IMG/VR virus record: IMGVR_UViG_2695421015_000001
Span: 1-64,000 of that record
Strand: one strand, 5' to 3'
Length of the DNA stretch: 64,000 nt
From: a virus
Taxonomy: Duplodnaviria; Caudoviricetes
Shown: in pieces, positions 37,824-63,704 of the stretch
How the letters are laid out: each line of letters opens with the position of its first letter
Position numbering within the stretch: the stretch's first letter is position 1
Notes under the pieces: generated by a model
The model's input: only the letters and a program-made list of their open reading frames with translations
Told to the model about the DNA's origin: nothing
The model's database searches: none
Position numbers and translations under genes: made by a program

Positions 37824-38207
37824 CTATCGGAACAGAAGCGAAGCCGCTCGTTCCCATGGGTGACGATCGCGGACGATCTTGGCTTCCGTTTGCGCGCGGC
37901 CGTTGCCGCGCATTTGCATATCTCGGATCGTGACCCGGATCAGCGGCGGGCTTTCGCCGGCCGCTTCGTTGAGCCAAACGATCATGTGGCCATTGTTGAG
38001 TCGCTGGTAGACGGCTCTCGCATCAACATCCCAGCTGCTGCGCCCGTAGAAGCCAGGTCCATCGTACCCGCTCAGCCACCGATCCCAGTGATCTCTGTGG
38101 GTGTTGTAACCGCCTTTGGTGAGGCGATCCGACTCCGGCATCGTGGCCGGCAGGCGCCGCACGGCGAGCAGCATCTCGTGGATCGAATAAGAGCGTATCG
38201 CCATCAT
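37824..38207 (-). CDS. hypothetical phage protein
   Basis: HWDRWLSGYDGPGFYGR...ARAVYQRL...WLNEAAG. Confidence 0.7.
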   Translation of the reverse strand: MMAIRSYSIHEMLLAVRRLPATMPESDRLTKGGYNTHRDHWDRWLSGYDGPGFYGRSSWDVDARAVYQRLNNGHMIVWLNEAAGESPPLIRVTIRDMQMRGNGRAQTEAKIVRDRHPWERAASLLFR

Positions 38208-38470
38208 CGCACCACGCATTCTTCAATGACGTGCCACTCCTCGCCGCGCTCGCTCATCTTCTCCCAATAGCGGGAGACAAGCTCGTCGTCGGCGGGGCGG
38301 GTCTCGGCTCCGAACTCATGATCCCACCATTCGTCGCAGTGGTCATGGACCGCGCCGTCCGCGGCCGCCCGCGACGGGTGCGCGGTGACGGTGGTTCCAT
38401 GCTTGTGGTCGATCACCAGCACCCAAACTCTGGTGTTAGTTTTTTGCACCAATTCGGTGTCAGTAGTCAT
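38204..38470 (-). CDS. hypothetical phage protein
   Basis: RBS GGAGACC; VWVLVIDHKHG. Confidence 0.7.
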   Translation of the reverse strand: MTTDTELVQKTNTRVWVLVIDHKHGTTVTAHPSRAAADGAVHDHCDEWWDHEFGAETRPADDELVSRYWEKMSERGEEWHVIEECVVR

Positions 38471-38592
38471 AGATTTGGTCTCCGTGTTTGTGATAATGAG
38501 TCGCTGCTCCGATTGATGGACGCTGGGATGGTCTCCTTGCAGCCAACCTCTCGGGCACGAGGCGGGAGCTGCGAACTCCCGCCTCACCTTTT

Positions 38593-38787
38593 TTAGCGCC
38601 GCAGTCTCTCCGTGATAGAGAGTATGGCGTTGTAGTCGTCGGCGTCCGGCGGCTTCGAATCGTTGTAGCGCGGAGGCGTGCCTCCGAGCGCCCGATCGTA
38701 GGCGTCGATCTCTGCGGTCACCTCGCCGGCGATCTGCTCGATCTGTAACAGATGCCGGATACGGAAAAAGGCAAGCAACAGTTTCAT
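38593..38787 (-). CDS. hypothetical phage protein
   Basis: RBS GAGGAGAC; coupled to the upstream gene. Confidence 0.6.
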   Translation of the reverse strand: MKLLLAFFRIRHLLQIEQIAGEVTAEIDAYDRALGGTPPRYNDSKPPDADDYNAILSITERLRR

Positions 38788-39194
38788 CGCGCTGTCTCCT
38801 CCGTCAGCATGGCGGACAGTGTGCGGAAGCGATCAGCGGCTTTGTTCTGATCCTCGACGAAGGCCAGGAGCGCCGTTGACAGATGGTAGCGCAGGGTCTT
38901 GGTTGACGCTTCGCTGCGGTCCATCAACAGGTCACCGGGCTTGCCGTCCTCCGAGGTGACGGCCATCTGGAGGAAGTCCGCCAACACCGTTAGCCGATAG
39001 AAATTCAACGCGGCGTTTAGGATGTCTGCCTTCTGGCCGTCCGCCAGATCGGGTCTCTTGCACAGGCCTGATACTGCGATATTGACGGCGAGGGTTGCGC
39101 GCGTGGCGGCCGACATCTTCGGTACCCTCTCCTTCAAGAGGTTGATGAAGGCGTCGGCGTCGAGCTTGGAGAAGTCTGCAGTTGCGTGTTCCAT
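38784..39194 (-). CDS. hypothetical phage protein
   Basis: Leader module at 39216. Confidence 0.75.
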   Translation of the reverse strand: MEHATADFSKLDADAFINLLKERVPKMSAATRATLAVNIAVSGLCKRPDLADGQKADILNAALNFYRLTVLADFLQMAVTSEDGKPGDLLMDRSEASTKTLRYHLSTALLAFVEDQNKAADRFRTLSAMLTEETAR

Positions 39195-39249
39195 AGTCGT
39201 GGTCTCCTTGTGAATGCCGGCTGCGAACCGGCGGTCGAGGTGGGTGGAT

Positions 39250-39483
39250 TTATCGGTCGTCGCGATGCACGATGACGACCTTCTCCGATTTGGGCGCCGT
39301 GCAGGCCCAGATCAGGGCGGCGATCCAGCCGAGGATCGTCCATCCCAAGAGCAGGTTGGTCATGAAGATCGCGAGCGTCTGACGATGCCGGCGGATCAGG
39401 CTGATGGATGTCGGTATGAAGTAGAGCGACAGGATGACGAGGAGCCCGATCAGAGCGGCTCCGTTATCAGAGGTATTGTTCAT
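39250..39483 (-). CDS. superinfection immunity protein (T4 Imm-like family)
   Basis: LYFIPT.I...R.H....IF..NLLLGWT.LGWIAALIWA signature. Confidence 0.92.
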   Translation of the reverse strand: MNNTSDNGAALIGLLVILSLYFIPTSISLIRRHRQTLAIFMTNLLLGWTILGWIAALIWACTAPKSEKVVIVHRDDR

Positions 39484-39535
39484 TGGTGGTCTCCTTGTGA
39501 ATGCCGGCTGCGAACCGGCGGGTGGGTGGCTTGGT

Positions 39536-39775
39536 TTAGATGAAAAGTCGGCGCCGCACTGGCGGCAGCGATATCGCGATCGCCTTTTCGATGGCGCCCA
39601 AGGCTTCGTCGCCCGGGGAGCCGTTCGGGTGCAGTAGCCGGGCGCAACGGATCAGGTACGCCGCGGCATGTTCCTCGCAACAAAAGCGAGGGATCTCAGA
39701 CCTGCGAATGGTGACCGAGATGACGGTATCGGTGCTTTCGCAATTGCCCCAATGGCACATGAACTCACGGGGCAT
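39536..39775 (-). CDS. small Cys-rich hypothetical protein
   Basis: CHWGNC...FCCEEH; RBS GAGGAGG. Confidence 0.6.
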   Translation of the reverse strand: MPREFMCHWGNCESTDTVISVTIRRSEIPRFCCEEHAAAYLIRCARLLHPNGSPGDEALGAIEKAIAISLPPVRRRLFI

Positions 39776-39941
39776 ACGGTACCTCCTCGACCTTCACGAC
39801 CTTCATCGCGACGACCTCGGCCTTGTCCATTAGGCAGTCGCCGCAACTGACGGCAGGGTCGGGGACGCGATCCTCGCGGACGACGTCCGATAACTTGTTG
39901 CAGGATGGGCAGACGACGTGGAAGAGATATCGCCGCTTCAT
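39765..39941 (-). CDS. zinc-ribbon hypothetical protein
   Basis: CPSC...CGDC; leader module at 39963. Confidence 0.65.
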   Translation of the reverse strand: MKRRYLFHVVCPSCNKLSDVVREDRVPDPAVSCGDCLMDKAEVVAMKVVKVEEVPYAP

Positions 39942-40123
39942 TGTTCGGTCTCCTTGGATTGGCGCCGCTGCGAACGGCGGTTGAGTTGTTCTTCGGCCCA
40001 CGCGAGCGCTCCTTCGTAGAACTCGCGGGGGAGGTCGCCGTCACTGTCGCCGACAGCGCCGGCGAGTTTGGCGTGCAGGGCCTCGATGATGGCTTCGAGG
40101 CGGCGGGTGCTGAGTGAAGCCAT
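39938..40123 (-). CDS. hypothetical protein
   Basis: TGATG coupling; its 3' end runs through the next leader module. Confidence 0.55.
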   Translation of the reverse strand: MASLSTRRLEAIIEALHAKLAGAVGDSDGDLPREFYEGALAWAEEQLNRRSQRRQSKETEQ

Positions 40124-40296
40124 CAGACGATCACCTTCCTCACGCGGAAGGTTGCCTTTGGCGAGCGCTTGCGCATGAGCGCAGCGCCAGCCTCCGCCTC
40201 GTCCTCATCGCGATAGGCCTGCATGACGTACCATCTATCGAGGTCGGGCGGCTGTATCTCAACCGCCCATGGCCTCCGCTTGCTGAGGTTTGCCAT
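40123..40296 (-). CDS. hypothetical protein (MANLSKRRP...)
   Basis: RBS GGAGG; TGATG coupling. Confidence 0.65.
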   Translation of the reverse strand: MANLSKRRPWAVEIQPPDLDRWYVMQAYRDEDEAEAGAALMRKRSPKATFRVRKVIV

Positions 40297-40541
40297 CACT
40301 TCGCCTCCCATTGCATGGCGGCGAAGGCGAGGTCCTCGACCAGATCGCGATACGCGGCCGGGTCGGTGCCGGTGCAGTCGAGACGGTTGATCTCGGCGAG
40401 TATCTCGGCTCGCACCAGCGCCTCCTGTAGCGTCTGGCCGAGCCGGGGCCAGCCATGTCCCCATTGCCTCTCGACGTATCTGGCAGCCTCCTTGATCCGT
40501 CGCTGGACGTCGCGCTTCATCGGCTTACTGAGGTTTGCCAT
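40296..40541 (-). CDS. hypothetical protein (MANLSKPMK...)
   Basis: Operon context. Confidence 0.65.
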   Translation of the reverse strand: MANLSKPMKRDVQRRIKEAARYVERQWGHGWPRLGQTLQEALVRAEILAEINRLDCTGTDPAAYRDLVEDLAFAAMQWEAK

Positions 40542-40545
40542 CAGA

Positions 40546-40839
40546 TCACGACGCACAGATCGCGCCGATCATCCAGTGGGTTTTGTCGCCGCGCTTGAAC
40601 CGCACGGCGCGTGCCTCCTCCCACTTGCGGCAGTTCGCGTCGAGATAGTCGTTGGCCGATTTCGCGTCGGCGAACTCGTCGCCGGCGACGAACATCAGGC
40701 CGGAGGCCATGCCGAAGCCGCCGGAGTAGGAGTGCCCGTTCTCGTAACGGTCTTGGTCCTGGGCCTCCGCGAACTTTTGCTTGACCGCCTCGCGGTCCAG
40801 TTTGCCGTCAAGCGTCATCGTCTCAAAATTTGCACCCAT
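40546..40839 (-). CDS. hypothetical phage protein
   Basis: MGANFE...YENGHSYSG...KWE..A...IGAICAS; leader module at 40868. Confidence 0.75.
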   Translation of the reverse strand: MGANFETMTLDGKLDREAVKQKFAEAQDQDRYENGHSYSGGFGMASGLMFVAGDEFADAKSANDYLDANCRKWEEARAVRFKRGDKTHWMIGAICAS

Positions 40840-41047
40840 GGTGCTGGTCTCCTTGATTGGGGTTGATGCCCTCTGCGAAAGGGCGGTTAGCGATCCGGGT
40901 TCTCTAGCTCGTTGGTGAGGCTTCCGAGCCAAACAGGAGTTGCTGCAGCAACGACGACCGCATCCACGATGCGGGCATCGAAGTGTAGGCAGATTTTTGC
41001 GGCGGCCACGCCGATTAGAAAGCGGGCCACCGGCAATACCATCGCTA

Positions 41048-41395
41048 TCAGTGTCCGTGGTGCCATGTCCTGCCACCATCATGCGAGTGATGCCCGCCAG
41101 CCAGCGCCTTGGCGTCGACACGGCGACCTGCGAGCTGTTCGGCGCGGGCGAGTTGCTGTTTCGCCATCGCCGATCCGGTGGACATGATGCGCCGGTAGAC
41201 GCAAGCGTCGGTGACGCCCCTGCGATTGACAGCGGCATCGAGGCCCTCGAACGCGATCGCGCCAGTCGGACCGACCTTCGGCTTGACGCGGCCGTTGACG
41301 ATCGCCTGCGCGACGAGGTCGATGACCTTCTTGATCTCCTCCTTTCGTTCGGTGAGGGTTTGGGTGGGGGTACTTTTCCAAGTGTCGCACGCCAT
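41048..41395 (-). CDS. hypothetical protein associated with the AAA ATPase
   Basis: RBS AAGGAGAG; ends HHSHDGGRTWHHGH. Confidence 0.75.
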   Translation of the reverse strand: MACDTWKSTPTQTLTERKEEIKKVIDLVAQAIVNGRVKPKVGPTGAIAFEGLDAAVNRRGVTDACVYRRIMSTGSAMAKQQLARAEQLAGRRVDAKALAGGHHSHDGGRTWHHGH

Positions 41396-41425
41396 GTTGG
41401 TCTCTCCTTGATGAATGGGAAATGG

Positions 41426-41449
41426 GATCGGCGGCCGAAGCCGCCGATC
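41426..41449 (-). other. stable cUUCGg hairpin in gene leader
   Basis: GATCGGCGGC-TTCG-GCCGCCGATC at the usual leader position but with a different loop. Confidence 0.6.
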
Positions 41450-41460
41450 TGTTACGTGGA

Positions 41461-42342
41461 TCAGTCCATCTCGAACTGTGGCACCTGCACGGCCGGAGCC
41501 GCCGGCGCGAGTGACTCTCCGAGGTCGATCTCCGGAGCGTCGGTTACCGGAACCCCATCCGAGTCCCGGATTATGTCGTTCTCATACGCGGGCACCTCCT
41601 CCATCTCGATCGGAGCCAGGTCAAGCATGCGACCCTCGTGGATGGGGGCAGCGACCTCCGTCGCCTCGTCGAGGTCAAGGAAGCTGGTCCGGGCGGCTGT
41701 GATCTTCTGGATCGACAACAGGTCGATCTCGGCCGCGCTTTGCTCGCCGGCCTTTTTGATCGTGGTAGCCGCGGAGCGAGCAACCTTGATCGCATCCTTG
41801 ACGCGCTCGGCCATTTCAGGGGAGAGCATGGAGCCAAGCTCGCGCGCCCGGTCGGCCGCGTCCCGGATCGCCTTGGGGTCGAACTTGCTGATGCCAGCTT
41901 CCATCGCGGCGAGCAGCTCGCGGACCTCGGCGTTGATGGCTCGCACCGCCTTGACGTCGTCGCTTTCGATCTTGCCGGCAACAACCTCGAAGCTGAGGCG
42001 AGTGGTCGCGGCTCGACGATTGAACTCGTCGGCGAGCGCGCGAGCCTCGTCCACCGATTGGTTCAATGCCGCATAGTTGTCTTCCGGGCAGAGCAGACCG
42101 AACGAGATCGGCGCGCAGGTTTTGGTGACGGTGGCGCGCATCTTGCTCCTCAGTTGCGTCGCCTCCTTCAACTCTGCGGCGTTAGCGATCACACGCTCGG
42201 TCTCCCATCTGCCTTTCAGGCTGCCGTCAGCGTCTTCGGTGTCGGCCTCGAGGATCGTCTTGGAATACTTGACGTTGCCGGTGATACCGGTGCGCATAAT
42301 CACAACGTAACCCGGGCGGATGGTGGTGGTTCGGATCGTCAT
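41461..42342 (-). CDS. helical hypothetical protein associated with the AAA ATPase
   Basis: 293 aa; leader module at 42365. Confidence 0.8.
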   Translation of the reverse strand: MTIRTTTIRPGYVVIMRTGITGNVKYSKTILEADTEDADGSLKGRWETERVIANAAELKEATQLRSKMRATVTKTCAPISFGLLCPEDNYAALNQSVDEARALADEFNRRAATTRLSFEVVAGKIESDDVKAVRAINAEVRELLAAMEAGISKFDPKAIRDAADRARELGSMLSPEMAERVKDAIKVARSAATTIKKAGEQSAAEIDLLSIQKITAARTSFLDLDEATEVAAPIHEGRMLDLAPIEMEEVPAYENDIIRDSDGVPVTDAPEIDLGESLAPAAPAVQVPQFEMD

Positions 42343-42429
42343 AGTGGTGGTCTCCTTGGTGAATGCGGCCTGCGAAGCCGCGTTGGGGTGGTGGTCGGTA
42401 TTGCCGCGGCGGTTATCCGCCGCGGGTAG

Positions 42430-42603
42430 TCATTGCCAGACTTGCAGGCGGCGGCGCCGCCAGCGCGCGACAGACAGAGCAAGCTTTTCTGTCGCGCATG
42501 AGATCGGAATGAACCGGGCGTCCTTGGCGATGCGCCAGTAGCCATTCCGATCGCGATACTCGGCGGTCCAGCCGCCGAGCGAGTTCTGATACGCCCGGAT
42601 CAT
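42430..42603 (-). CDS. 57-aa hypothetical protein with Arg-rich C-terminus (below ORF-track cutoff)
   Basis: MIRAYQNSLGGWTAEY...ARWRRRRLQVWQ; starts 6 nt after the ATPase stop. Confidence 0.5.
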   Translation of the reverse strand: MIRAYQNSLGGWTAEYRDRNGYWRIAKDARFIPISCATEKLALSVARWRRRRLQVWQ

Positions 42604-42609
42604 GGGCGG

Positions 42610-44634
42610 TCAGATATCGAGGACGCGGCCGCCGGCAGCGGCGGCACGCTTGGGCATCGCCACGACCGTTTTTTCTTCGGCCGAGGCGTTACGCACTCCC
42701 TTTTCCTTGACCCAGTCGTTCAGCTTGGAGAGCTTCTCGGCTTGGCTTCTGGACAGGGGTGTCACCTTGGTGGCGACGCGGACCAGGTCGTCAACGGTGA
42801 TCGCCCGCGCACCGTCCGCGAATGCCTTGAACAGCGCATCCGGCACGATGGCGGCGATCTCCGATCCGGTGAACTGGTCGGTCGCCGCGATCACGTCCGC
42901 GATCCCGTTGGGGTCGAGGTCTGTGATACTGCGGCCATGCGCTTTCAGCGCCGCCCGCAACACGCCCAGACGCTCCACCTTGTTTGGCAGGCCAACGAAC
43001 CAGAACTCGTCGAACCTACCCTTGCGGAGTAGCTCCGGCGGCAGGCTCGACACATCGTTCGCGGTGGCGATCACGAACGACTCGCCCTTGCGCTCCTGCA
43101 TCCACTGCAGGAACGAGCCGAGTTGATCGGAGGAGACACCGCCATCCGCACCGCCTTGGGTGGCGCCGGCAAGCGCCTTCTCGATCTCGTCGATCAGCAC
43201 CACGCAGCGACCGATCGCCTCGATGGTGCTTTGGGCCTTGCGCATGTTGGCCTCAGACTCGCCGACGAACTTGCCTTTGAGCGCGCCCAAATCCCACTTG
43301 AGCAGGGGGATGCCGCCGTAGGCGGTGGCGATCGCCTTCGAGGTCAGCGTCTTGCCGCAGCCGGGGATGCCAACGAGGAAGCACCCCTTCGGCGGCGGCA
43401 GGCCGTAGTCGCGCGCCTTCGGGCTGTAGGCGAGGTTTCTCTCCATCAGCCACTCTTTCAGGTTCTCCAGACCGCCGACGTCGTCGAGGCCGCCAGCGAG
43501 CGGGTCGAGCCACTCCAAGTTACCTTCGCGGGCGATCACGCGCTTTTTCTCCTTGGAGATCGTCGCCGGGTCGATCTTGCGCGTCTGCACCAGCGATTTG
43601 GCGAAGCAGGCCTGCGCCTCTTCACCGGAGAGGCCGATAGCGGCGTCGACGGCAGAATCGCGCACGCCGTTGGGCGCCGCTAACGCGCGGATCGGTTTGG
43701 TCTTGTCCGGTATCGGCTTGCCGTCCGCATCGAAGATCTTCTTCTTGGTATCGGGGTCGATCTTGTAATCGAACTCCCGCAACGAATTGATCGAAGCGTC
43801 GAGCAGGGCCGCGATCTCGTCGCGGTCCGGCATCGGCCATTCCATGACGGTGGCATGGTTTGCCAGTTCCGGCGGAACGTCGCGGGACGGCGACAGCACG
43901 ATCAGAACCTGAGCACCCTCGGGCAGCATCCCGGGCAACGAGCGCGCCAGATTACGCACCTGACGGCAGGTCACCATGCCGGGAGGTCCGATCAGCCACG
44001 GCGGCAGATCGCGCATGATCCACGCGCCGCGGTCGGCTTGGTCCGCGGCGCGCTTGGCAATCAGGGCGAGCGCAACGTCGATGCTTTTCCCGTTGTCCTC
44101 GCCAAGGTTAGCGAGGTCGCCGTTCAGTTCGGTGAACCCCTGACCGCAATCCCACATGCGCGGGACGAAGCCAGCCGCAGCGGCCGCCTGCACCAGATAA
44201 CTCTCGGCTCTGCCTTCCTCGCGCGTCACGATCCATAGGAGCGGATTACGGGCGCGGGCGAGGGCGGCAATGTCGGCCGCCAGTTCCTCGCTCTTGGTCT
44301 TGGGCCGCGTCGTTGCGGTCGCCTTCACTTCGGCTTTGGTCTCGACCTTCGGTGCCGCCTTCTCCTTTTTCTTGGCGGGCGGCGCTGCCGCGATCTCGAT
44401 CGGCATGTCGCCATCGACCGTCGCCATCACCTTGTCGTACGCCTCGACGGCTCCCGTCAGGTCGAACGTATCCGGCGTTGCGCGCTCCAGCATGGGCAGA
44501 CTGCCCCACGGTATGGGTCCGAACTGCGACATGAACCCGTCGTCGCCGACAGACTTGACCTCGACGAGTTGGACATTGCTGCCCATACGCATTTCCAGCC
44601 GGTCGCCCGGCTTAATATCTTCACGGTTTAACAT
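42610..44634 (-). CDS. AAA+ ATPase (Ycf46-like)
   Basis: DVGGLENLKEWL, GIPGCGKT, FVGESE, LIDEIEK, ATAN..LPPELLRKGRFD; degenerate N-terminal AAA-like domain. Confidence 0.92.
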   Translation of the reverse strand: MLNREDIKPGDRLEMRMGSNVQLVEVKSVGDDGFMSQFGPIPWGSLPMLERATPDTFDLTGAVEAYDKVMATVDGDMPIEIAAAPPAKKKEKAAPKVETKAEVKATATTRPKTKSEELAADIAALARARNPLLWIVTREEGRAESYLVQAAAAAGFVPRMWDCGQGFTELNGDLANLGEDNGKSIDVALALIAKRAADQADRGAWIMRDLPPWLIGPPGMVTCRQVRNLARSLPGMLPEGAQVLIVLSPSRDVPPELANHATVMEWPMPDRDEIAALLDASINSLREFDYKIDPDTKKKIFDADGKPIPDKTKPIRALAAPNGVRDSAVDAAIGLSGEEAQACFAKSLVQTRKIDPATISKEKKRVIAREGNLEWLDPLAGGLDDVGGLENLKEWLMERNLAYSPKARDYGLPPPKGCFLVGIPGCGKTLTSKAIATAYGGIPLLKWDLGALKGKFVGESEANMRKAQSTIEAIGRCVVLIDEIEKALAGATQGGADGGVSSDQLGSFLQWMQERKGESFVIATANDVSSLPPELLRKGRFDEFWFVGLPNKVERLGVLRAALKAHGRSITDLDPNGIADVIAATDQFTGSEIAAIVPDALFKAFADGARAITVDDLVRVATKVTPLSRSQAEKLSKLNDWVKEKGVRNASAEEKTVVAMPKRAAAAGGRVLDI

Positions 44635-45138: not shown

Positions 45139-45166
45139 GGTGTTGGTCTCCTGTTTTGGTTTGGGG

Positions 45167-58591: not shown

Positions 58592-58602
58592 GGTGCATTC
58601 CC

Positions 58603-59085
58603 TCAAAAGCCGCTGGCGAGTTGATGGGCTTCGGCGTCGGTCTTGCCGTCAAGTTTGTGCTTGGCGTAGGAGCGTTGCCATTTGACCCAGCTGCGGAGTT
58701 CGGCCGCCTCCGCCTCCTTGCAAGCAGACGCGAACACGAACAGCTCGTCGTCACGGCGCGGCTCCCACGCGCTTTGCGCGGCGAACATGCGGACCTTGGA
58801 GATCGCATCGCTCATGGTCATTGGCCTGGAGCCGAGCCCGTTCATCCACAGCGTCTTGCCGTGATGCTCGGTCGCCTTGCCGGGCTCGATGATCTGGTAG
58901 CACCACTCGCCGACCGGGCTCGCGGCCACGATCAGGGTGAGGCCCCATCGGAACTCGATGTGCGGCGCCTGCGCATTGCACAGGAAGTCGATCTTGTTCG
59001 AGAGGTCGAGTTTGGCCTCGTTCTTGTTCGGGCCTTCGCCGACGACGCAGCCGCGGCTTGTTGTGACGGTCTTGGGTTTACGCAT
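58603..59085 (-). CDS. hypothetical phage protein
   Basis: Leader module at 59103. Confidence 0.75.
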   Translation of the reverse strand: MRKPKTVTTSRGCVVGEGPNKNEAKLDLSNKIDFLCNAQAPHIEFRWGLTLIVAASPVGEWCYQIIEPGKATEHHGKTLWMNGLGSRPMTMSDAISKVRMFAAQSAWEPRRDDELFVFASACKEAEAAELRSWVKWQRSYAKHKLDGKTDAEAHQLASGF

Positions 59086-59128
59086 GGTGGTCTCCTTGTG
59101 ATGCGCTCGCTGCGAACGAGCGCGGGTT

Positions 59129-59668
59129 TCAGATGATCGAGCCGTAGCCTTTGCAGTCCGGACACTTGTCCCAGACCGGCGTGATGCCGTCGTCGCCTTT
59201 GCAGGTCTCGATGCCGTTGGATGCGACGTTGCCGAAATGCGTGGCGCAGGTCGGGCAGCCGTGGGTGTCGTTCCAGATCGTGGTCGCCTCGTCCTCGACG
59301 GCGATCAGCGCCGCGCCGTAAGCTTCGGCAGCCTGCTTGGGCGTCTCGAACTTTTCGTCGAGCAGGTCGATGACGTGGGTGGTAGTGGTCTGATCGACGC
59401 CTTCGACGATCGACGTCACTGACAGGGCGGTGAAGAAAGATCCTTCGACGGACAAATCCTCGCCCCACACCCAGCTGCCGGGGTTATCCTCACCGGCATA
59501 GAGCAGCGCGCCGACCGACGCGCCGCAGTCGGTGTACTTGTAGGCTTTGCGGGCGAGCTGCCCGACGTTGTCGGCGTCGTTCGCCTCAAGGATGGCGCGA
59601 AGGTTCTCTTGCGCGGCTTGCCCCATGGCTTTGAGCTCTTCGCCGCGTTCGTATTCGATTTCGTTCAT
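59129..59668 (-). CDS. hypothetical protein with DnaJ-like CxxCxGxG end
   Basis: YKYTDCGA...CPTC...CPDCKGYG; RBS AAGGAGTCC. Confidence 0.75.
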   Translation of the reverse strand: MNEIEYERGEELKAMGQAAQENLRAILEANDADNVGQLARKAYKYTDCGASVGALLYAGEDNPGSWVWGEDLSVEGSFFTALSVTSIVEGVDQTTTTHVIDLLDEKFETPKQAAEAYGAALIAVEDEATTIWNDTHGCPTCATHFGNVASNGIETCKGDDGITPVWDKCPDCKGYGSII

Positions 59669-59677: not shown

Positions 59678-60012
59678 CTTGGTTTGCCGATTGACGGCGG
59701 GCATGGGTGAATGAACCCGGGGCAGGCCCCCGGGGGCGGGGCAATAGAACCGGGGCAGGCCCGGGGGCAGGCCTAGAACCCGGGCAGGGAATAGAGGCCC
59801 GGGGGCAGGCCCGGGCAGGGGCAGGGAATAGAGGCCCGGGCAGGGGCAGGGGCCTAGGAACCGGGGCAGGGGCAGGCCCCTAGGCCCGGGCAGGCCCCTA
59901 GGCCATAGGCCCGGGCAGGCCCGGGGGGCAGGAATAGGGCCGAAACGGCCCTATTAGAACCCAAGCCCGAAACCAAACGAGGAGCGCCGCATAGCCCCTT
60001 GCGCGCGGCGAC
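59678..60012 (+). repeat. G-rich TC-free tract 2 (six GGGCAGGG plus shared hairpin)
   Basis: GGGCAGGG at 59782, 59813, 59819, 59838, 59844 and 59864; ATAGGGCCGAAACGGCCCTATT at 59934-59955. Confidence 0.85.
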
Positions 60013-60412
60013 TCGAGATGCGGTCGCGGATCGATCCGGCGTCGGCGAGGCCGCGCTCATGCAAATCGGTCAGCGTCTTGAGCGCGTCGGCGCGCGCCCG
60101 GGTGACGTAGACGGTCAGGGTCCGCTTGACGTGCGGCCCGAGTCCGACGGTCACGACCTGGCCCTCGGCGTTCACGCCATAGGTCCGCGCCTGCGCTCCC
60201 GTCCGGTGGCGGCTGCCGGGGTTGCGAATGTGCAGCGTGGTGACGACCCATCCGAAGCGCTCGGTCTCGTACAGGGTCAGGGTGTGCAGCACGTCGAACG
60301 GCTGCGGCTTGCGCCAGTCGTATTTCTTGGGGTGCTTCGGATATGCGGTGTCGGTCTCCTTGAGGCCGAAGGGCAGGGCGGGCTTGGTCGGCTTGCCGGT
60401 GGGGAACTTCAT
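59954..60412 (-). CDS. hypothetical phage protein
   Basis: Leader module at 60448. Confidence 0.75.
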   Translation of the reverse strand: MKFPTGKPTKPALPFGLKETDTAYPKHPKKYDWRKPQPFDVLHTLTLYETERFGWVVTTLHIRNPGSRHRTGAQARTYGVNAEGQVVTVGLGPHVKRTLTVYVTRARADALKTLTDLHERGLADAGSIRDRISSRRAQGAMRRSSFGFGLGF

Positions 60413-60567
60413 GGGTGGTCTCCTTGCGATGAATGTTGAAATGGAAGGCGCGCCCCGCTGCGAACGGGGCGCGCGCTGTCAGTCTCTCCGTGTGCCCAAC
60501 GTCACCATTGGGCATTCGCTCAGCGTAGTTCTGAGGCGCGGTCTCCTGTAGAGAGGCTGAAAGGTTG

Positions 60568-60816
60568 TCAGCGCGGATCGTAGAGCGGCTTGCTGTTGGG
60601 CTTCCACTCGGCGCCCGGCCAGACGCGGCCGTTGTAACTGACGTGGGCAATGATCTTGCCGGCGTCGTCGATGATCGTGCCGCCGGTGAACGGCGCGAGA
60701 CTCGAGCCGCAACCGGCGCCGAGGTCTCCGGTGTCGATGAAGCGACGCACCCTCTCGGATGCGTCGGCGTAGCTGGCGACCTTGACGGCGCGACTGCGGG
60801 TGAGATGAACTCGCAT
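60568..60816 (-). CDS. hypothetical phage protein
   Basis: RBS GGAGGG; IAHVSYNGRVW. Confidence 0.7.
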   Translation of the reverse strand: MRVHLTRSRAVKVASYADASERVRRFIDTGDLGAGCGSSLAPFTGGTIIDDAGKIIAHVSYNGRVWPGAEWKPNSKPLYDPR

Positions 60817-60819
60817 CGG

Positions 60820-61008
60820 TCAGCCCTCCATCCCGCAAGCGCGGTAGAAGAGGCTGGGCTTGAATTTGCCATTTGCGACGGCGCATTCGATTGCGAAGCG
60901 GCGCACGGTGTCGCGCCACTGGTCGAGTTGCTTCCGATCTTGCGTGTTGGGCTTGCCCTGCTTCAGCACGGCGGCGATGAACTGGAAGTGAGATTGGCTG
61001 ATGGACAT
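60820..61008 (-). CDS. hypothetical phage protein
   Basis: RBS GGAGG; HFQFIAAVL...N.KF...FYRACG. Confidence 0.7.
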   Translation of the reverse strand: MSISQSHFQFIAAVLKQGKPNTQDRKQLDQWRDTVRRFAIECAVANGKFKPSLFYRACGMEG

Positions 61009-61019
61009 GCTCGCCTCCC

Positions 61020-61181
61020 TCACTGCACGTTGACGCGAGGATGATCGGCGAGGCCGCGCCGCGTCAGGAACTCCTGATCGACAACGTAGCGGGTGTAGGG
61101 CTGCGGGCGATCTTCGACGTATTCGCGGAAGCGGCGGAGTTCATCTTGGCGGATCAGCTTGAGGATTTGCTTGCGTGACAT
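61020..61181 (-). CDS. 53-aa protein MSRKQILKLIR... (below ORF-track cutoff)
   Basis: Leader module at 61201 with AAGGAGACCACCATG. Confidence 0.7.
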   Translation of the reverse strand: MSRKQILKLIRQDELRRFREYVEDRPQPYTRYVVDQEFLTRRGLADHPRVNVQ

Positions 61182-61248
61182 GGTGGTCTCCTTTGGTTGG
61201 GGCCGCTGCGAACGGCCGGTGAAAAACAGGTGATGGGTTTGGTCGGGA

Positions 61249-61545
61249 TCAGGCGGAGAACACGACGGTTTCGCCGTCGATGGTGTGTGGCACCTTGCGG
61301 GTGACGAGTGCGGTGGCTGCGTCCAGCGGGAGCTTCCACGTCGCTGCGACGACGTTGGCGAGGTTCTTGCGATCCTTCGGGAAGCTGGCGCCGTTGATCG
61401 CCCAAGCGATCAGGCCGGGAGCGTAGACGAACGGCGACGATTGGAGGCGATAGGTCTTGGTGGCGGGGTAGCTCTGGATGAAGGTCTTGGCGGCGCGCTT
61501 GCTGCGGGTGTCGGCGAGGACAGCGGAAATTGCAGTCTTGGACAT
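61249..61545 (-). CDS. hypothetical phage protein
   Basis: AAGGAGACCACCATG; type-2 leader. Confidence 0.75.
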   Translation of the reverse strand: MSKTAISAVLADTRSKRAAKTFIQSYPATKTYRLQSSPFVYAPGLIAWAINGASFPKDRKNLANVVAATWKLPLDAATALVTRKVPHTIDGETVVFSA

Positions 61546-61562
61546 GGTGGTCTCCTTGGACT

Positions 61563-61614
61563 GATGCGGAAGTGCATCGTGACGCGGCGACATGCGCCGC
61601 GCTGCGATGGGCTC
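61563..61614 (-). promoter_or_regulatory. structured leader type 2, copy B
   Basis: Same 19-mer plus variable hairpin, 5 nt from the RBS. Confidence 0.7.
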
Positions 61615-61617
61615 CGA

Positions 61618-61920
61618 TCAGTCGCGTACCGGCCAGCCGCGCTCGGCGGCGAGCTTCTTGGCTTGGTCGATGACATCCATCGAGGGCAGGCGTCCTTCGA
61701 GGCATACGCAGAGCGCGACGCCGGCAGCCGGCGTATGCAGGTGGCCGCGCTCTTTCGTGACGGCGACGGGCCGTGTGTCGGCGATGCCGACAACCTTCTC
61801 CTTCTCGATCACGAGAATGTCCCCGGTCTCGACCGGGTACTCGCCGTCGAAGGCGAAGTGAATGCCGGTCTGACAGGCATCGTAGGCGTCGCCGCTGGTG
61901 GGGAATGTGTGGGTGCTCAT
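61618..61920 (-). CDS. hypothetical phage protein
   Basis: AYDACQ...GDILVIEKEKVVGIADT.PVAVT...GHLH; leader module at 61943. Confidence 0.75.
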   Translation of the reverse strand: MSTHTFPTSGDAYDACQTGIHFAFDGEYPVETGDILVIEKEKVVGIADTRPVAVTKERGHLHTPAAGVALCVCLEGRLPSMDVIDQAKKLAAERGWPVRD

Positions 61921-61970
61921 GGTGACGGTCTCCTTGGGTTGACGTTCTGCGAAAACGATGGGTGAGGGGA

Positions 61971-62276
61971 TCAGACGTATTCGATGGCGACGACGACGCC
62001 GGTGGTCATGAAGATTTCGGCGGCGTGGGCGCAGGCGATCTCCATGTCGGGGACGACCTCGCCGGCGACGACCAGCTTGATCGCCTTGCGCTCGGCCATG
62101 TCGATGCCGGTGCCGATCGCGTCGAGCAGGTTGGTCGCGTAGTAGGCGCTGGTCTCGGTCTTGGCGCCCTTGAAGTTGACGATGTACTCGCCGTCGACCG
62201 ACTTGATGGTCATGCCGTGCTTGGCCAGGATCGCGCGGGCTTGGTGGATCGTGTAGTTGGTTCTGGTTCCAGCCAT
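61971..62276 (-). CDS. hypothetical phage protein
   Basis: AAGGAGACCACCATG; type-2 leader. Confidence 0.75.
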   Translation of the reverse strand: MAGTRTNYTIHQARAILAKHGMTIKSVDGEYIVNFKGAKTETSAYYATNLLDAIGTGIDMAERKAIKLVVAGEVVPDMEIACAHAAEIFMTTGVVVAIEYV

Positions 62277-62292
62277 GGTGGTCTCCTTGGGT

Positions 62293-62344
62293 GATGCGGA
62301 AGTGCATCGTGGGACGGCGACATGCGCCGTCCGTCGATGAACTC
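62293..62344 (-). promoter_or_regulatory. structured leader type 2, copy C
   Basis: Same 19-mer plus variable hairpin, 4 nt from the RBS. Confidence 0.7.
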
Positions 62345-62347
62345 GGA

Positions 62348-62563
62348 TCAGTCGATGGTCTTGAAGCCGTGGCGGGCGGCCGCCGTCACGTCGCCGGTCT
62401 TGGCCATGCCGGACAGGTGCAGGCCGAACACCGCAGTGAAGCGGCCGTCGCGATTGCAGACGACCAGCGGCATCATCTGGTCGAGGCCCGTGGTCGCGAG
62501 TGCCTTCATCAGGTTCGCTTCGGTGGCGTAGCTCTTGGCGTTGTCGATATCGAGTATGCTCAT
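62348..62563 (-). CDS. hypothetical phage protein
   Basis: KSYATEANL.KAL...GRFTAVF. Confidence 0.7.
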   Translation of the reverse strand: MSILDIDNAKSYATEANLMKALATTGLDQMMPLVVCNRDGRFTAVFGLHLSGMAKTGDVTAAARHGFKTID

Positions 62564-62574
62564 GGCGGTCACTC

Positions 62575-62643
62575 TCACTTGCCGTTGCGGTAGCGCTGGA
62601 GTTCGAGCTTGCGGATCAGGGCGATGATTTGCTTGCGTGACAT
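62575..62643 (-). CDS. 22-aa basic peptide MSRKQIIALIRKLELQRYRNGK
   Basis: Has its own full leader module at 62680; paralogous to 61020-61181. Confidence 0.6.
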   Translation of the reverse strand: MSRKQIIALIRKLELQRYRNGK

Positions 62644-62726
62644 GGTGTGGTCTCCTTGATGGTTGGTGGTGGAATGAAAAGGCCCCGCTGCGAACGGGGC
62701 CTGTCGGGGATGGGATGGGGATTGGA

Positions 62727-63092
62727 TCAGCCGCGGCCGCGACCGCACTTCATCTTGCGCTTGCCGCCCTTGGCCTTGCCCTTTGTCGAGCGATAGCCCT
62801 TGCCGCTGTCCATCTCGCTCGCCCAGATCGCGTCATCGACCCGCACATGCTGCCTTTCGATGGCGTCAAACACGCGATAGCAGGCGTCAGAGAACTCGAG
62901 GTCCAGGTCGCGCAGCCTATCGAGTGCGGCGTCCCGGGCGTCGATATCCTTGTAAGTCTCGCAGGGCATCGCCTTGATGGCGCGGGCGGCGGCGAGGGAA
63001 GCGACCTCGCCGGCCTTCGTGGCTGCGCGGAAGGCGGCGTTCATCTTGGTTTCGGCTTTCTTGGCGGTGGCAATGATGGTCTGGACGTTCAT
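62727..63092 (-). CDS. hypothetical protein with basic C-terminal tail
   Basis: Leader module at 63125; ends KGKAKGGKRKMKCGRGRG. Confidence 0.7.
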   Translation of the reverse strand: MNVQTIIATAKKAETKMNAAFRAATKAGEVASLAAARAIKAMPCETYKDIDARDAALDRLRDLDLEFSDACYRVFDAIERQHVRVDDAIWASEMDSGKGYRSTKGKAKGGKRKMKCGRGRG

Positions 63093-63167
63093 GGGTGGTC
63101 TCCTTGAGTTGCAGGCATGAAAAAGGCCCGCTGCGAATGGGGCCGGTGATGGTCGGTGGTGGTGGGG

Positions 63168-63452
63168 TCAGCGGCGCAGGCTGGCGGGTCCGCCTTTGCC
63201 CTTGGGCGCCTCGCGCCAAACGTCGGGGTACTTGGCCATGATCGCTTTCTTGTTCTGGTAGAAGCCCTCGCAGGCGACGCGAAAGAACTCGACGCCGTCG
63301 CGGCAGAAGATCACGAAGGCGGTGTCGGGGATGGACCGGAACGATCCGGCGGTGCGGTAGCAGGCGTCCTCGCCAGCCATCGGGATGCTGTCCTTCGAGG
63401 TGACGAGTCTGCCGCGGTTCCAGATTTGGCAGATGGCAGTGAACTTGCTCAT
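63168..63452 (-). CDS. hypothetical phage protein
   Basis: AAGGAGACCACCATG. Confidence 0.7.
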   Translation of the reverse strand: MSKFTAICQIWNRGRLVTSKDSIPMAGEDACYRTAGSFRSIPDTAFVIFCRDGVEFFRVACEGFYQNKKAIMAKYPDVWREAPKGKGGPASLRR

Positions 63453-63500
63453 GGTGGTCTCCTTGTGTGAGGTAGGGTGGAAGATCAGGGTGATGGTGGA

Positions 63501-63704
63501 TCAGCAGAGCGCGGAAGCAACGCAGTGCGCGTTTTCCCAGACGTTGCGGCAATCGGCGAGGCGGAGTTGATCCGCGATCACCTTGCGGATGTGCGTCTTG
63601 CTGTGCGTCTTGGGGCAGCACTTTTTGTAGAAGTTGTTTTTGAGCAGCGCCTGTTCGACGTTATCGATGCGGCGCTTGCTGATGGCGGTGGTCTTGGTAG
63701 CCAT
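63501..63704 (-). CDS. small basic Cys-containing protein
   Basis: AAGGAGACCACCATG. Confidence 0.65.
   Translation of the reverse strand: MATKTTAISKRRIDNVEQALLKNNFYKKCCPKTHSKTHIRKVIADQLRLADCRNVWENAHCVASALC

What the first reader, a model, noticed from the sequence alone, without database searches (positions are those of the whole stretch)
37824..63704. 26-kb unidirectional cassette-like array of about 55 mostly unknown small genes
SEEN: every credible ORF from 37824 to 63704 is on the minus strand. Genes are grouped in units of one to four, each opened by the leader module, and the upstream stop codon often lies within a few bases of the next hairpin. Recognisable members are two DNA methyltransferases, an Imm-like superinfection protein, an AAA+ ATPase, a zinc peptidase and many zinc-ribbon or membrane mini-proteins. 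The array converges on the replication operon at about 37.7 kb. KNOWN: such arrays typify the early host-takeover and anti-defence regions of large lytic phages (SPO1, T4, T5) and the leading regions of conjugative plasmids. INFERENCE: this is an unusually large early/anti-defence arsenal on a lambda-like temperate backbone and a source of new anti-defence proteins.
Basis: partly seen in the sequence, partly recalled or inferred. Interest (0 to 1): 0.75.

Follow-up and report, generated by a model that had tools for sequence, protein, structure and literature searches.

The report
Prophage accessory-gene array with portable leaders
A 26-kb one-directional block of about 59 mostly unknown small genes in a roughly 110-kb prophage is real, and most of its translation units start with the same small RNA hairpin plus ribosome-binding box, a signal shared only with a few related phages.

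Summary
From 37824 to 63704 all credible genes (about 59) lie on the minus strand. They form 34 units of 1-5 genes, and 28-29 units open with a hairpin carrying an invariant UUCGCAG apex, a G-poor spacer, an invariant CAAGGAGACCA box and ATG. The hairpin stems covary strongly (98 distinct copies, 92.7% paired against 45% when shuffled). The module is confined to this prophage within the 9.09-Mb genome and recurs in five related viral records.

The block is the variable accessory region of a large temperate phage of roughly 110 kb. A 17-bp palindromic operator sits upstream of the array and also at the cI/cro-like and recombination-operon promoters. That argues, by inference only, for repressor-controlled early expression.

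Gene content is mosaic among relatives. Leaders travel with their genes, and one cassette indel arose by a leader-leader crossover. However, breakpoints are not enriched at leaders over other gene junctions.

Only 3 of 57 proteins scanned hit Pfam. Apart from two orphan DNA methyltransferases, no known anti-defence family was found, so "anti-defence arsenal" is unproven. The closest known systems are PeSL cassettes and mycobacteriophage SAS/ESAS; this is a new variant of that kind. Earlier scan notes report comparable portable leaders in other phages.

The parts
37824..63704 (-). Whole array: about 59 genes in 34 translation units
   Evidence: GC3 gene calls
59954..63704 (-). Promoter-proximal block of 13 genes. 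Homologues are present in relative B, partly present in A and absent from C
37824..59668 (-). Distal block of about 46 genes, ending opposite the replication operon
59937..59951 (-). GGGCCGTTTCGGCCC hairpin at the internal boundary. One of only 3 copies in the genome
   Evidence: (I1)
59700..59935 (-). Non-coding tract of CCTGCCCC / GGCCTGCCC repeats (9 copies of CCTGCCCC) ahead of gene 59129-59668
   Evidence: (D5)
37717..37731 (-). The same GGGCCGTTTCGGCCC hairpin at the point of convergence with the replication operon. Candidate two-way terminator
62641..62702 (-). Leader (8-bp stem, UUCGCAG loop, SD box, ATG) of a 22-aa ORF
63090..63137 (-). Leader with an interrupted stem, before gene 62727-63092
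61918..61957 (-). Leader of 61618-61920
61179..61217 (-). Leader of 61020-61181
60410..60474 (-). Leader (10-bp stem) of 59954-60412
59083..59123 (-). Leader of 58603-59085
58196..58234 (-). Leader of 57896-58198
57819..57879 (-). Leader with an interrupted long stem, before 57585-57821
56051..56112 (-). Leader (12-bp stem) of 55880-56053
55594..55632 (-). Leader of 55330-55596
55107..55148 (-). Leader of 54912-55109
54197..54238 (-). Leader of 54011-54199
53034..53074 (-). Leader of 52794-53036
52010..52050 (-). Leader of 50567-52012
50537..50585 (-). Leader of 49511-50539
49428..49499 (-). Leader (12-bp stem) of 49149-49430
49086..49142 (-). Leader (9-bp stem) of 48693-49088
48610..48668 (-). 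Leader (8-bp stem) of 47254-48612
47217..47251 (-). Leader of 46353-47219
46306..46342 (-). Leader of 46075-46308
44632..44669 (-). Leader of the AAA ATPase gene
42340..42381 (-). Leader of 41461-42342
40837..40884 (-). Leader of 40546-40839
39939..39979 (-). Leader of 39765-39941
39481..39519 (-). Leader of the Imm-like gene
39192..39232 (-). Leader of 38784-39194. Its 36-nt core is identical to that of the leader at 39481-39519
   Evidence: (D8)
57272..57374 (-). Second-type leader (variable hairpin, GATGCACTTCCGCATC hairpin, a TCGCAG hairpin, SD box) of 56129-57271
   Evidence: (D16, I24)
61546..61615 (-). Second-type leader of 61249-61545
   Evidence: (D17)
62277..62345 (-). Second-type leader of 61971-62276
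   Evidence: (D17)
42610..44634 (-). 674-aa protein with a Cdc48/p97-type AAA domain (residues about 384-611) and an unknown N-terminal half. 45% identical to mycobacteriophage Corndog gp96
41461..42342 (-). 293-aa partner protein (phrog_11021). 37% identical to Corndog gp95 and in the same gene order
41048..41395 (-). 115-aa partner protein (phrog_11784). 53% identical to Corndog gp93 and in the same gene order
47254..48612 (-). DUF4942 + SAM-dependent methyltransferase, with no cognate nuclease recognised nearby
53304..54014 (-). 236-aa protein in phrog_757 'DNA methyltransferase' (E 2.9e-53). No Pfam hit. A 183-nt stretch matches a methyltransferase gene of a Labrenzia phage
49511..50539 (-). 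342-aa M28-like metallopeptidase-fold protein (phrog_4191; Atlas clusters annotated M28)
39250..39483 (-). 77-aa membrane protein with two predicted membrane segments, Pfam Imm_superinfect
54554..54919 (-). 121-aa basic protein with two CxxC pairs and weak PHROG matches to HNH endonucleases
56129..57271 (-). 380-aa protein of a large phage family (phrog_10079; at least 1941 relatives). Confident model with no PDB fold match. It lies next to the ATPase gene in relatives but 11 kb upstream of it here
50567..52012 (-). 481-aa protein whose only relatives are unnamed viral clusters. Absent from relatives A, B and C
27910..27926 (.). Operator-like palindrome TGCAC-N7-GTGCA upstream of the leftward recombination operon. 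The same site lies 740 nt upstream of the array, just beyond the window end
29088..29104 (.). The same palindrome next to a TTGACA box in the cI/cro-like intergenic region
28145..28185 (-). Four GGGACAT repeats. A second cluster of five lies upstream of the array, beyond the window end
19560..27841 (-). Recombination/SSB operon. It carries five further leaders of the same kind, with loops at 19602, 23164, 24390, 25885 and 27833
35284..35333 (+). The one leader of the same kind on the plus strand, inside the replication operon

Best explanation
The block is the variable accessory region of a temperate phage of roughly 110 kb, integrated in the chromosome.

Transcription. It runs leftward from a promoter about 740 nt upstream of the first gene, just past the window end. 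That promoter carries the same 17-bp palindromic operator as the cI/cro-like promoter and the recombination-operon promoter. The array is therefore most likely silent in the lysogen and switched on early after induction. Transcription ends at a hairpin that faces the replication operon.

Translation. The long transcript or transcripts are translated in 34 units. Each unit opens with a portable RNA leader:
- a hairpin whose stem varies freely but stays paired, with an invariant apex UUCGCAG (U.G and U-A pairs closing a CGC triloop);
- a G-poor, unstructured spacer;
- an invariant CAAGGAGACCA box that contains the Shine-Dalgarno core;
- the start codon.
The later genes of a unit are translationally coupled to the first.

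Proposed role of the leader. It gives each acquired gene an exposed, insulated ribosome-binding site. It probably also gives an end-protecting hairpin to the cistron upstream and, after any cleavage, to the one downstream.

Evolution. Leader and gene are inherited together, so the array evolves as a set of leader-plus-gene cassettes.

What is shown and what is inferred. Shown: the anatomy, the covariation, the phage specificity, the mosaic content and the shared operator. Inferred: early timing, RNA-level function, and what most of the proteins do.
For: Strand, units and spacing.

Leader structure:
- 98 distinct leaders from six phages give 92.7% paired cells, against 45.2% in shuffles (0 of 500 shuffles reach the observed value) and 34-46% when partners are slid. 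All 5 stem pairs show changes on both sides.
- Stems differ by compensatory changes in front of orthologous genes, for example in the B040/C023 and W059/A051 leaders.
- In 10 of 10 leaders folded, the hairpin is in the minimum-energy structure.
- The 11-mer box is invariant at 27-28 of 28 copies. Only AAGGAG is complementary to the host 16S 3' end.

Specificity:
- 30 of 31 exact matches in the 9.09-Mb genome lie between window positions 19.5 and 63.1 kb.
- 34 of the genome's 64 TTCGCAG hairpins lie in the prophage.
- None of 400 other genomes of the same family has more than one match.
- Five IMG/VR records carry 29, 22, 18, 6 and 4 copies.

Class restriction: leaders occur in the array, five in the recombination operon and one in the replication operon, but only one in the roughly 50-kb late region.

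Shared control:
- The operator occurs 20 times in the genome and 4 times in the prophage, including the cI/cro-like region, the recombination operon and the array upstream region. It is also present upstream of the arrays of relatives A, B and C.
- GGGACAT repeat clusters are shared by the recombination-operon and array upstream regions.

Leader travels with its gene: leader status agrees between reciprocal best hits in 12 of 13, 15 of 21, 13 of 14, 14 of 17, 9 of 11 and 17 of 23 gene pairs.
Against: - No expression data: no RNA run was listed, so timing, operon structure and any RNA processing are untested.
- A purely cis-acting role does not explain why the 7-nt apex and the non-pairing flanks of the SD box are invariant.
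- The folding energies of whole leaders are unremarkable (z-scores +0.2 to -2.7).
- The operator lies 740 nt from the first gene, and terminator-like hairpins lie between them. The array may therefore need antitermination or a further promoter.
- The loop was used to select the 98 copies, so its invariance within that set is partly circular. Leaders with other hairpins do exist: the second type, and a cUUCGg hairpin before 41048-41395.
- The prophage ends are not proven.
Confidence: 0.6

Rival explanations
1. The leaders form a class-wide post-transcriptional switch. A trans-acting factor (a phage or host RNA-binding protein, or an endoribonuclease) reads the invariant UUCGCAG apex and/or the CAAGGAGACCA box. 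It would then turn about 40 early cistrons off or on together. This resembles T4 RegB cutting GGAG in early Shine-Dalgarno sites, RegA repressing early mRNAs, or distributed boxB-like sites loading an antiterminator (the T4 and lambda facts are recalled, not taken from a call). This reading extends the best explanation and does not exclude it.
For: - The apex is invariant while the stems vary.
- C at -3 and ACCA after AAGGAG are invariant yet cannot pair with the 16S 3' end.
- Leaders are restricted to non-structural operons.
- A 26-kb operon full of G+C-rich hairpins, some followed by T runs, would benefit from antitermination.
Against: - No candidate factor was identified. No Pfam RNA-binding or ribonuclease family turned up among the 57 array proteins or the other prophage proteins scanned.
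- The loop has no complement in 16S rRNA or in the array's own leader.
- No boxA-like partner motif was looked for or seen.
Confidence: 0.3
2. The leaders are above all recombination linkers of the PeSL type. On this view their conservation exists to let phages swap leader-plus-gene cassettes by homologous exchange, and their role in expression is secondary.
For: - Relative B carries a 447-bp cassette (gene B043) flanked by two leaders, where relative C has a single chimeric leader. The crossover lies in or beside the loop.
- Array content is highly mosaic: about half of the window's array genes have no homologue in A, B or C.
- The 380-aa gene has moved 11 kb relative to its position in all three relatives.
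Against: - Synteny breaks are no commoner at leader junctions (74 of 87) than at leaderless junctions (56 of 68); pooled Fisher p = 0.67. In the closest pair the figures are 7 of 16 against 9 of 14.
- Of about 13 breakpoints between B and C at the nucleotide level, 3 lie inside a leader, 2 at the edge between a stop codon and a hairpin, 4 at leaderless junctions and 4 inside ORFs.
- Two further clean indels (B024, C013) are leaderless genes inserted between a stop codon and the next hairpin.
- The shared sequence is only 7 + 11 nt, separated by variable sequence.
- Covariation points to selection on pairing, not on identity.
Confidence: 0.12
3. The array is not an early lytic operon. It is a lysogeny-expressed cargo ('moron') or defence island that benefits the host.
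For: - The Imm-like superinfection-exclusion protein and the methyltransferases are typical of genes that prophages express in lysogens.
- About six small membrane proteins are predicted.
Against: - The repressor-type operator is shared with the cI/cro-like and recombination-operon promoters.
- The same leader is used by the SSB and exonuclease genes.
- No PADLOC defence system was recognised in 10 proteins, beyond generic AAA and methyltransferase domains.
Confidence: 0.12
4. The repeats are DNA-level protein-binding sites (stoperator-like or ESAS-like) that silence or organise the prophage DNA, and are not RNA elements.
For: - The 11-mer is asymmetric, intergenic and always oriented with transcription, as described for Cluster A stoperators (passages of PMC4351075).
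- For the ESAS inverted repeats, the authors favoured DNA-binding proteins (PMC3203893).
Against: - Here the stems keep their pairing through compensatory changes while their sequence is free. That is the opposite of ESAS.
- The operator at the promoters is a different sequence, and the 11-mer is absent from the cI/cro-like region.
- Stems of 4-5 bp are unlikely to extrude from double-stranded DNA.
Confidence: 0.05

Closest known systems
PeSL (promoter-early stem-loop) cassettes of T4-type phages RB49/phi1 (PMC2839356; abstract and passages read)
   Same: - A repeated intergenic module with a stem-loop, a Shine-Dalgarno site and a start codon.
- It sits in front of ORFans in a hyperplastic, early-type region.
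- One cassette indel here has its crossover in or beside the loop, as reported for RB49.
   Different: - PeSLs contain a strong sigma-70-type promoter, and their stem-loop terminates transcription. These leaders have no room for a promoter (4-24 nt spacer), and none was found in 44-64 kb (0 found, 2.5 expected in shuffles).
- Most hairpins here lack a T run.
- The host phage is temperate.
- The apex is invariant and the stems covary.
Start-associated sequences (SAS) and extended SAS of Cluster K mycobacteriophages (PMC3203893; passages read)
   Same: - A conserved asymmetric box that contains the SD core plus flanks unable to pair with 16S rRNA.
- It lies a few bases before ATG starts, in one orientation.
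- It is restricted to non-structural genes and is absent from the host.
- About half the copies have an upstream inverted repeat.
- Box status is conserved within gene families.
   Different: - The sequences differ (GGGATAGGAGCCC there, CAAGGAGACCA here).
- ESAS arms are conserved in sequence and do not support RNA pairing. Here the arms are free in sequence but paired, and the loop is invariant.
- The host and phage lineages are different.
T4 RegB / RegA control of early mRNAs through their ribosome-binding regions (recalled; no paper read here)
   Same: A ribosome-binding signature specific to one temporal gene class, which could let one factor act on many early cistrons.
   Different: No RegB or RegA homologue and no cleavage data here. 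The resemblance is functional speculation only.
Integron gene-cassette arrays (general knowledge; mentioned in PMC2839356)
   Same: A one-directional array of small, mostly unknown, promoterless genes separated by structured repeats whose structure is better conserved than their sequence.
   Different: - The hairpins are 15-31 nt with a conserved loop. They are not attC sites of 57-141 bp with R/L boxes.
- They sit 5' of each gene and include its SD.
- No integron integrase was seen.
- The array lies inside a phage operon.
Right-arm genes gp96-gp95-gp93 of Cluster O mycobacteriophage Corndog (AY129335; paper PMC4351075, passages read)
   Same: The AAA ATPase, the 293-aa protein and the 115-aa protein are 45%, 37% and 53% identical to the Corndog proteins and in the same order. 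In both phages they sit in a long one-directional block of small non-structural genes.
   Different: - The Cluster O repeats are 17-bp sequence-invariant palindromes not tied to start codons.
- The rest of the arrays share nothing detectable.

Membership tests
PeSL cassettes | Each cassette carries a sigma-70-like early promoter (-35 and -10 boxes) | tested here: not met
   0 promoter-like sites in 44001-64000 against 2.5 +/- 1.3 in shuffles. The hairpin-to-SD spacer is only 4-24 nt. The stretch 37.8-44 kb was not scanned.
PeSL cassettes | Stem-loop followed by an SD and the start codon of a downstream ORFan, in a hyperplastic region | tested here: met
PeSL cassettes | Recombination between cassettes accounts for most indels between close relatives | tested here: inconclusive
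   One clear case (B043). There is no enrichment at leader junctions. 3 of about 13 B/C breakpoints lie inside a leader.
SAS / ESAS (Cluster K mycobacteriophages) | Conserved asymmetric box that includes the SD, a few nt before the start, in one orientation, on non-structural genes only | tested here: met
   This is an analogy of form only; the consensus sequence is different.
SAS / ESAS (Cluster K mycobacteriophages) | Consensus GGGATAGGAGCCC, plus 17-bp inverted repeats that are conserved in sequence and lack compensatory changes | tested here: not met
   The box here is CAAGGAGACCA. The stems covary.
Integron cassette array | attC sites (57-141 bp, R/L boxes) and an adjacent IntI integrase | tested here: not met
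   The hairpins are 15-31 nt. No integrase family appeared among the Pfam scans of array and flanking proteins. Not every flanking gene was scanned.
Stoperator-type repressor sites | The repeated site has the same sequence as the operator at the early promoter | tested here: not met
   The operator-like site is TGCAC-N7-GTGCA. The 11-mer is absent from the cI/cro-like intergenic region.
Repressor-controlled early operon of a temperate phage | Shares its operator with the promoters that flank the repressor gene | tested here: met
   Sites at 27910, 29088, 64449 and 65594, out of 20 in 9.09 Mb. The site is also present upstream of the arrays of A, B and C. Binding itself was not tested.
Repressor-controlled early operon of a temperate phage | Transcribed early after induction and silent in the lysogen | not testable with these tools
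   No RNA run was listed.
Known anti-defence gene set | Members of described anti-defence families (Ocr/Ard, Acr, Acb, Tad and the like) | tested here: not met
   Of 57 array proteins scanned, 3 hit Pfam: AAA, DUF4942 + methyltransferase, and Imm. Only the two methyltransferases are compatible with anti-restriction. No dedicated anti-defence library was available.
Rfam RNA families | Match to any curated covariance model | tested here: not met
   At the gathering threshold the only match was a tRNA. In E-value mode on 37.5-64 kb there was one chance-level hit and none on a leader.

The most novel reading that the evidence does not exclude
The UUCGCAG hairpin and the CAAGGAGACCA box together form a structured 'class tag' on about 40 early cistrons. 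A dedicated trans-acting factor reads this tag to switch the whole accessory regulon on or off after transcription. The factor could be an endoribonuclease, a translational repressor or an antiterminator loader. Any gene that acquires the leader would thereby join the regulon. This would be a portable post-transcriptional regulon in a temperate alphaproteobacterial phage group.
Probability: 0.3. Interest if true: 0.75.

Novelty: new variant of a known kind. Interest (0 to 1): 0.55.

Why it matters
Long runs of unknown small genes are where phages keep their host-takeover, exclusion and counter-defence functions. How those genes are expressed and exchanged is poorly understood outside T4-type phages and mycobacteriophages.

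This case offers about 100 natural copies of one short RNA element, with strong covariation, an invariant apex and an SD box whose flanks rRNA pairing cannot explain. That makes the question 'what do start-associated repeats do?' directly testable in a cultivable host with an inducible prophage.

The array also marks out several targets for functional work:
- a conserved block of a Cdc48-like ATPase and two partner proteins, shared with actinobacterial phages;
- a widespread 380-aa phage family with no solved fold;
- about 45 proteins with no family at all.

Tried and rejected
- RNA evidence: no RNA holder was listed for 54000-63900.
- Close relatives by other routes:
  - Megablast of 24 kb against the phage collection gave only a 183-nt methyltransferase hit.
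  - The protein-pattern scan of genome contigs with the ATPase returned one unrelated Clostridiales AAA hit.
  - The ATPase N-terminal half was found in 0 of 120 genomes of the same genus.
- Rfam: nothing on the leaders.
- Pairing partners for the loop: its complement is absent from the host 16S rRNA and from the array's own upstream leader.
- Leaders as intrinsic terminators: only 2 of the TTCGCAG hairpins are followed by a T run.
- Leaders as preferred breakpoints: the junction test was negative. Each insertion of a leaderless gene creates one break of each junction type, so this test is weak.
- PDB sequence searches of the 342-, 380- and 481-aa proteins: no hit at E <= 0.1.
- PDB fold search of the 380-aa model: best E 0.77. 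The viral library returned only uncharacterised phage proteins.
- PADLOC on 10 proteins: only generic AAA (IetA-like) and methyltransferase domains.
- Earlier scan notes for this genome: none.
- Literature: two full-text searches for a description of such leaders in Bradyrhizobium or other phages listed nothing relevant. Supplements of the papers cited were not seen.
- Failed calls: one search failed on a strand argument and was repeated. Script crashed and were corrected.

Full report
**Where the window lies.** The window is G000:C1:3014835-3078834 of a single-contig genome of 9.09 Mb. This region has about 63% G+C.

**Observation.** In a G+C-rich genome, raw ORF lists are noisy: 285 ORFs of at least 40 aa overlap 36-64 kb. 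I therefore called genes by third-position G+C and by ribosome-binding sites.
- Every credible gene from 37824 to 63704 is on the minus strand. There were 56 automatic calls plus three added by eye, giving the 59 listed.
- The median length of the 56 automatic calls is 90.5 aa, and 35 of the 56 are 100 aa or shorter.
- Three short plus-strand calls inside the block lie over leaders or overlap minus-strand genes. I take them as spurious, without a test.
- The plus-strand operon to the left encodes an AAA_25 helicase. Further left lie a cI-like HTH protein, a divergent small ORF at 29157-29405 that I call cro-like by position only (it was not scanned against any family), a YqaJ exonuclease and SSB.
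- The plus-strand operon and the array converge at about 37.7 kb on a GGGCCGTTTCGGCCC hairpin.

**The leader.** On the minus strand, most units begin with four parts in order: a stem of 4-12 bp closed by TTCGCAG, 4-24 nt of G-poor spacer, CAAGGAGACCA, and then ATG 4-8 nt later.
- A regex finds 29 in the array. Of these, 26 have a perfect stem of at least 4 bp next to the loop, 2 have interrupted stems and 1 is doubtful.
- Three units use a second, W-specific leader built around GATGCACTTCCGCATC.
- About five units have the box without that hairpin.
- Counting all of these gives 34 units of 1-5 genes.
- Junctions without a leader are tight, mostly -22 to +11 nt, as expected for translational coupling.
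- The upstream stop codon lies a median of 15 nt before the hairpin. Spacers contain 18 G in 447 nt.

**Is the hairpin real?** I collected every TTCGCAG followed by the box in the window and in the relatives, which gave 98 distinct sequences. They aligned without gaps.
- The five positions on each side of the loop pair in 92.7% of cells. Shuffles give 45.2% (0 of 500 reach the observed value), and slid partners give 34-46%.
- All five pairs change on both sides, in 220 cells in total.
- The loop was the selection criterion, so its invariance in that set is circular. The pairing was not selected for.
- In front of orthologous genes the stems differ by compensatory changes, even between the two closest phages.
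- All 10 leaders folded show the hairpin with U.G and U-A pairs closing a CGC triloop. Whole-leader energies are unremarkable, with z-scores from +0.2 to -2.7.
- Each position of the 11-mer is identical in 27-28 of 28 copies. Only AAGGAG complements the host 16S 3' end (GGATCACCTCCTTTCT). The C before it and the ACCA after it are unexplained by rRNA pairing.

**Specificity.**
- The exact pattern occurs 31 times in the genome, and 30 of these lie between window positions 19.5 and 63.1 kb.
- Of the genome's 64 TTCGCAG hairpins, 34 lie in the prophage.
- Among 400 other genomes of the same family, none has more than one match.
- In IMG/VR, five records carry many copies: G518 has 29, G519 has 22, G520 has 18, G521 has 6 and G522 has 4.
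- The other loci returned by that scan are chance single hits: 54 of the 80 loci have no hairpin at all.
- Within the prophage the leader also precedes five genes of the recombination/SSB operon and one gene of the replication operon. It precedes only one gene in the roughly 50 kb to the right.
- Rfam has no matching family.

**What the element is.** To the right of the window lie plus-strand small genes, a tRNA-Thr, a terminase large subunit, a portal protein and a 1033-aa NUDIX + Acb1 protein.
- A 29-nt repeat of the 5' part of the tRNA-Gln gene lies about 110 kb away.
- The three provirus relatives are 105-136 kb long.
- So this is one large temperate phage, not a lambda-sized one. Its ends are not proven.

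**Control region.** A palindrome, TGCAC-N7-GTGCA, occurs 20 times in the genome and four times in the prophage:
- next to a TTGACA box in the cI/cro-like intergenic region (29088);
- upstream of the recombination operon (27910);
- 740 nt upstream of the array's first gene (64449 in window coordinates, past the window end);
- at 65594.

It is also present upstream of the arrays of relatives A, B and C.

Clusters of GGGACAT repeats accompany both the recombination-operon site and the array site. Eight of the nine tandem GGGACAT pairs in the genome lie in this prophage, seven of them in these two clusters.

This is my main argument that the array belongs to the repressor-controlled early class. 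It is an inference from shared sites only. No RNA run was listed.

Between the operator and the first gene lie terminator-like hairpins. At 59.7-59.95 kb, a second copy of the boundary hairpin and a tract of CCTGCCCC repeats split the array. Whether that makes two operons is open.

**Comparison with relatives.** I fetched the arrays of G518 (A), G519 (B) and G520 (C) and called their genes in the same way. They have 48, 54 and 30 genes, with the same convergent layout.
- Order is broadly collinear but content is mosaic. About half of the window's array genes have no homologue in A, B or C.
- A core is shared: the ATPase with two partner proteins, the 380-aa protein, the DUF4942 methyltransferase and the two terminal genes.
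- The 380-aa gene sits next to the ATPase gene in A, B and C, but 11 kb upstream of it here.
- Leader status is mostly the same for reciprocal best hits: 12 of 13, 15 of 21, 13 of 14, 14 of 17, 9 of 11 and 17 of 23. Leader and gene therefore move together.

**Breakpoints.**
- At the gene-junction level, breaks are equally common with and without a leader. The pooled counts are 74 of 87 against 56 of 68 (p = 0.67), and in the closest pair 7 of 16 against 9 of 14. The pairs are not independent, and small-ORF calls are noisy.
- At nucleotide level between B and C, whose replication regions are 99.9% identical, about 13 ends were found. Three lie inside a leader, 2 at the edge between a stop codon and a hairpin, 4 at leaderless junctions and 4 inside ORFs.
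- Three clean small indels were read directly. Gene B043 is flanked by two leaders where C has one chimeric leader, so the crossover lay in or beside the loop, as in PeSL exchange. B024 and C013 are leaderless genes inserted between a stop codon and the next hairpin. That second kind of insertion would build multi-gene units.

**Proteins.**
- Pfam: 3 of 57 array proteins scanned have a family above the cut-off. These are AAA, DUF4942 + methyltransferase and Imm_superinfect.
- PHROGs: 9 of 30 match, mostly families of unknown function.
- PADLOC: nothing beyond generic domains in 10 proteins.
- The ATPase has a Cdc48/p97-type AAA domain. With the next two conserved genes it is syntenic with Corndog gp96, gp95 and gp93, at 45%, 37% and 53% identity.
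- The 342-aa protein is M28-like.
- The 380-aa protein has at least 1941 relatives. Its model is confident (pLDDT 94.6, pTM 0.88). It has no PDB fold match, and only uncharacterised phage proteins resemble it.
- 'Source of unknown proteins' is therefore right. 'Anti-defence arsenal' is not shown.

**Comparison with what is known.**
- PeSL cassettes share the stem-loop, SD, ORFan context and the occasional leader-leader crossover. They also carry a promoter and a terminator, which these leaders lack.
- SAS/ESAS share the SD-containing box with non-pairing flanks, the restriction to non-structural genes and the upstream inverted repeat. ESAS arms are conserved in sequence and do not covary.
- Integron attC sites, stoperators and REP-type elements fail on defining features (see the membership table).
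- Earlier notes of this scan describe comparable portable leaders in other phages. The kind is therefore recurrent, while this motif and its clade are new.

**Verdict.** The finding is real and its anatomy is well supported. Its function is inferred. It is a new variant of a known kind.

Noticed in passing
L131:483-3584 (window coordinates 84483-87584, beyond the window end): A 1033-aa protein encoded shortly after the portal gene combines a NUDIX domain with an Acb1 anti-CBASS phosphodiesterase domain (E 6.6e-37). It may be a virion-associated anti-defence protein. It is the only recognised anti-defence domain in this prophage, and it lies outside the array.
   Followed up: no
window 59700-59951; also 37584-37731 and 64545-64722 (the last beyond the window end): The hairpin GGGCCGTTTCGGCCC occurs only 3 times in the 9.09-Mb genome. 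All three copies are on the minus strand at boundaries of the array, each near CCTGCCCC repeats (9 copies within 59726-59932). These features are absent from relatives A, B and C. Their function is unknown; terminator, attenuator or regulator sites are possible.
   Followed up: partly
window 28145-28185, and 64890-64950 (beyond the window end): Clusters of four to five GGGACAT repeats lie upstream of both leftward early-type operons. Eight of the nine tandem pairs in the genome are in this prophage, seven of them in these two clusters. Similar repeats lie upstream of the arrays of relatives A, B and C. They may be binding sites of a second regulator.
   Followed up: partly
window 57272-57374, 61546-61615, 62277-62345: A second leader type is present three times and only in this phage. 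It consists of a variable hairpin, an invariant GATGCACTTCCGCATC hairpin and then the same SD box. It was not folded or modelled.
   Followed up: partly
window 41048-44634 and L023 (Corndog gp93-gp96): A block of three genes (a Cdc48-like AAA ATPase with an unknown 380-residue N-terminal half, plus proteins of 293 and 115 aa) is conserved in order between this prophage and actinobacterial Cluster O phages. That suggests a functional system of unknown role.
   Followed up: partly
window 1-17900 and tRNA-Gln 17907-17980: A lower-G+C stretch (52-60%) lies on the 3' side of the tRNA-Gln gene. A 19-nt repeat of the tRNA 3' end lies about 1.9 kb before the window start. This looks like a separate genomic island next to the prophage.
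   Followed up: no
window 18092-19510: A 472-aa gene next to the tRNA, where an integrase would be expected, has no Pfam family at E <= 0.001.
   Followed up: no
window 61020-61181 and 62575-62643: Two paralogous small ORFs both begin MSRKQI. One is 53 aa and the other is cut to 22 aa. Each has its own leader, and homologues exist in relatives A and B.
   Followed up: no
L130:6767-6841 (window coordinates 70767-70841): A tRNA-Thr (TGT) gene lies among the plus-strand small genes of the prophage.
   Followed up: no
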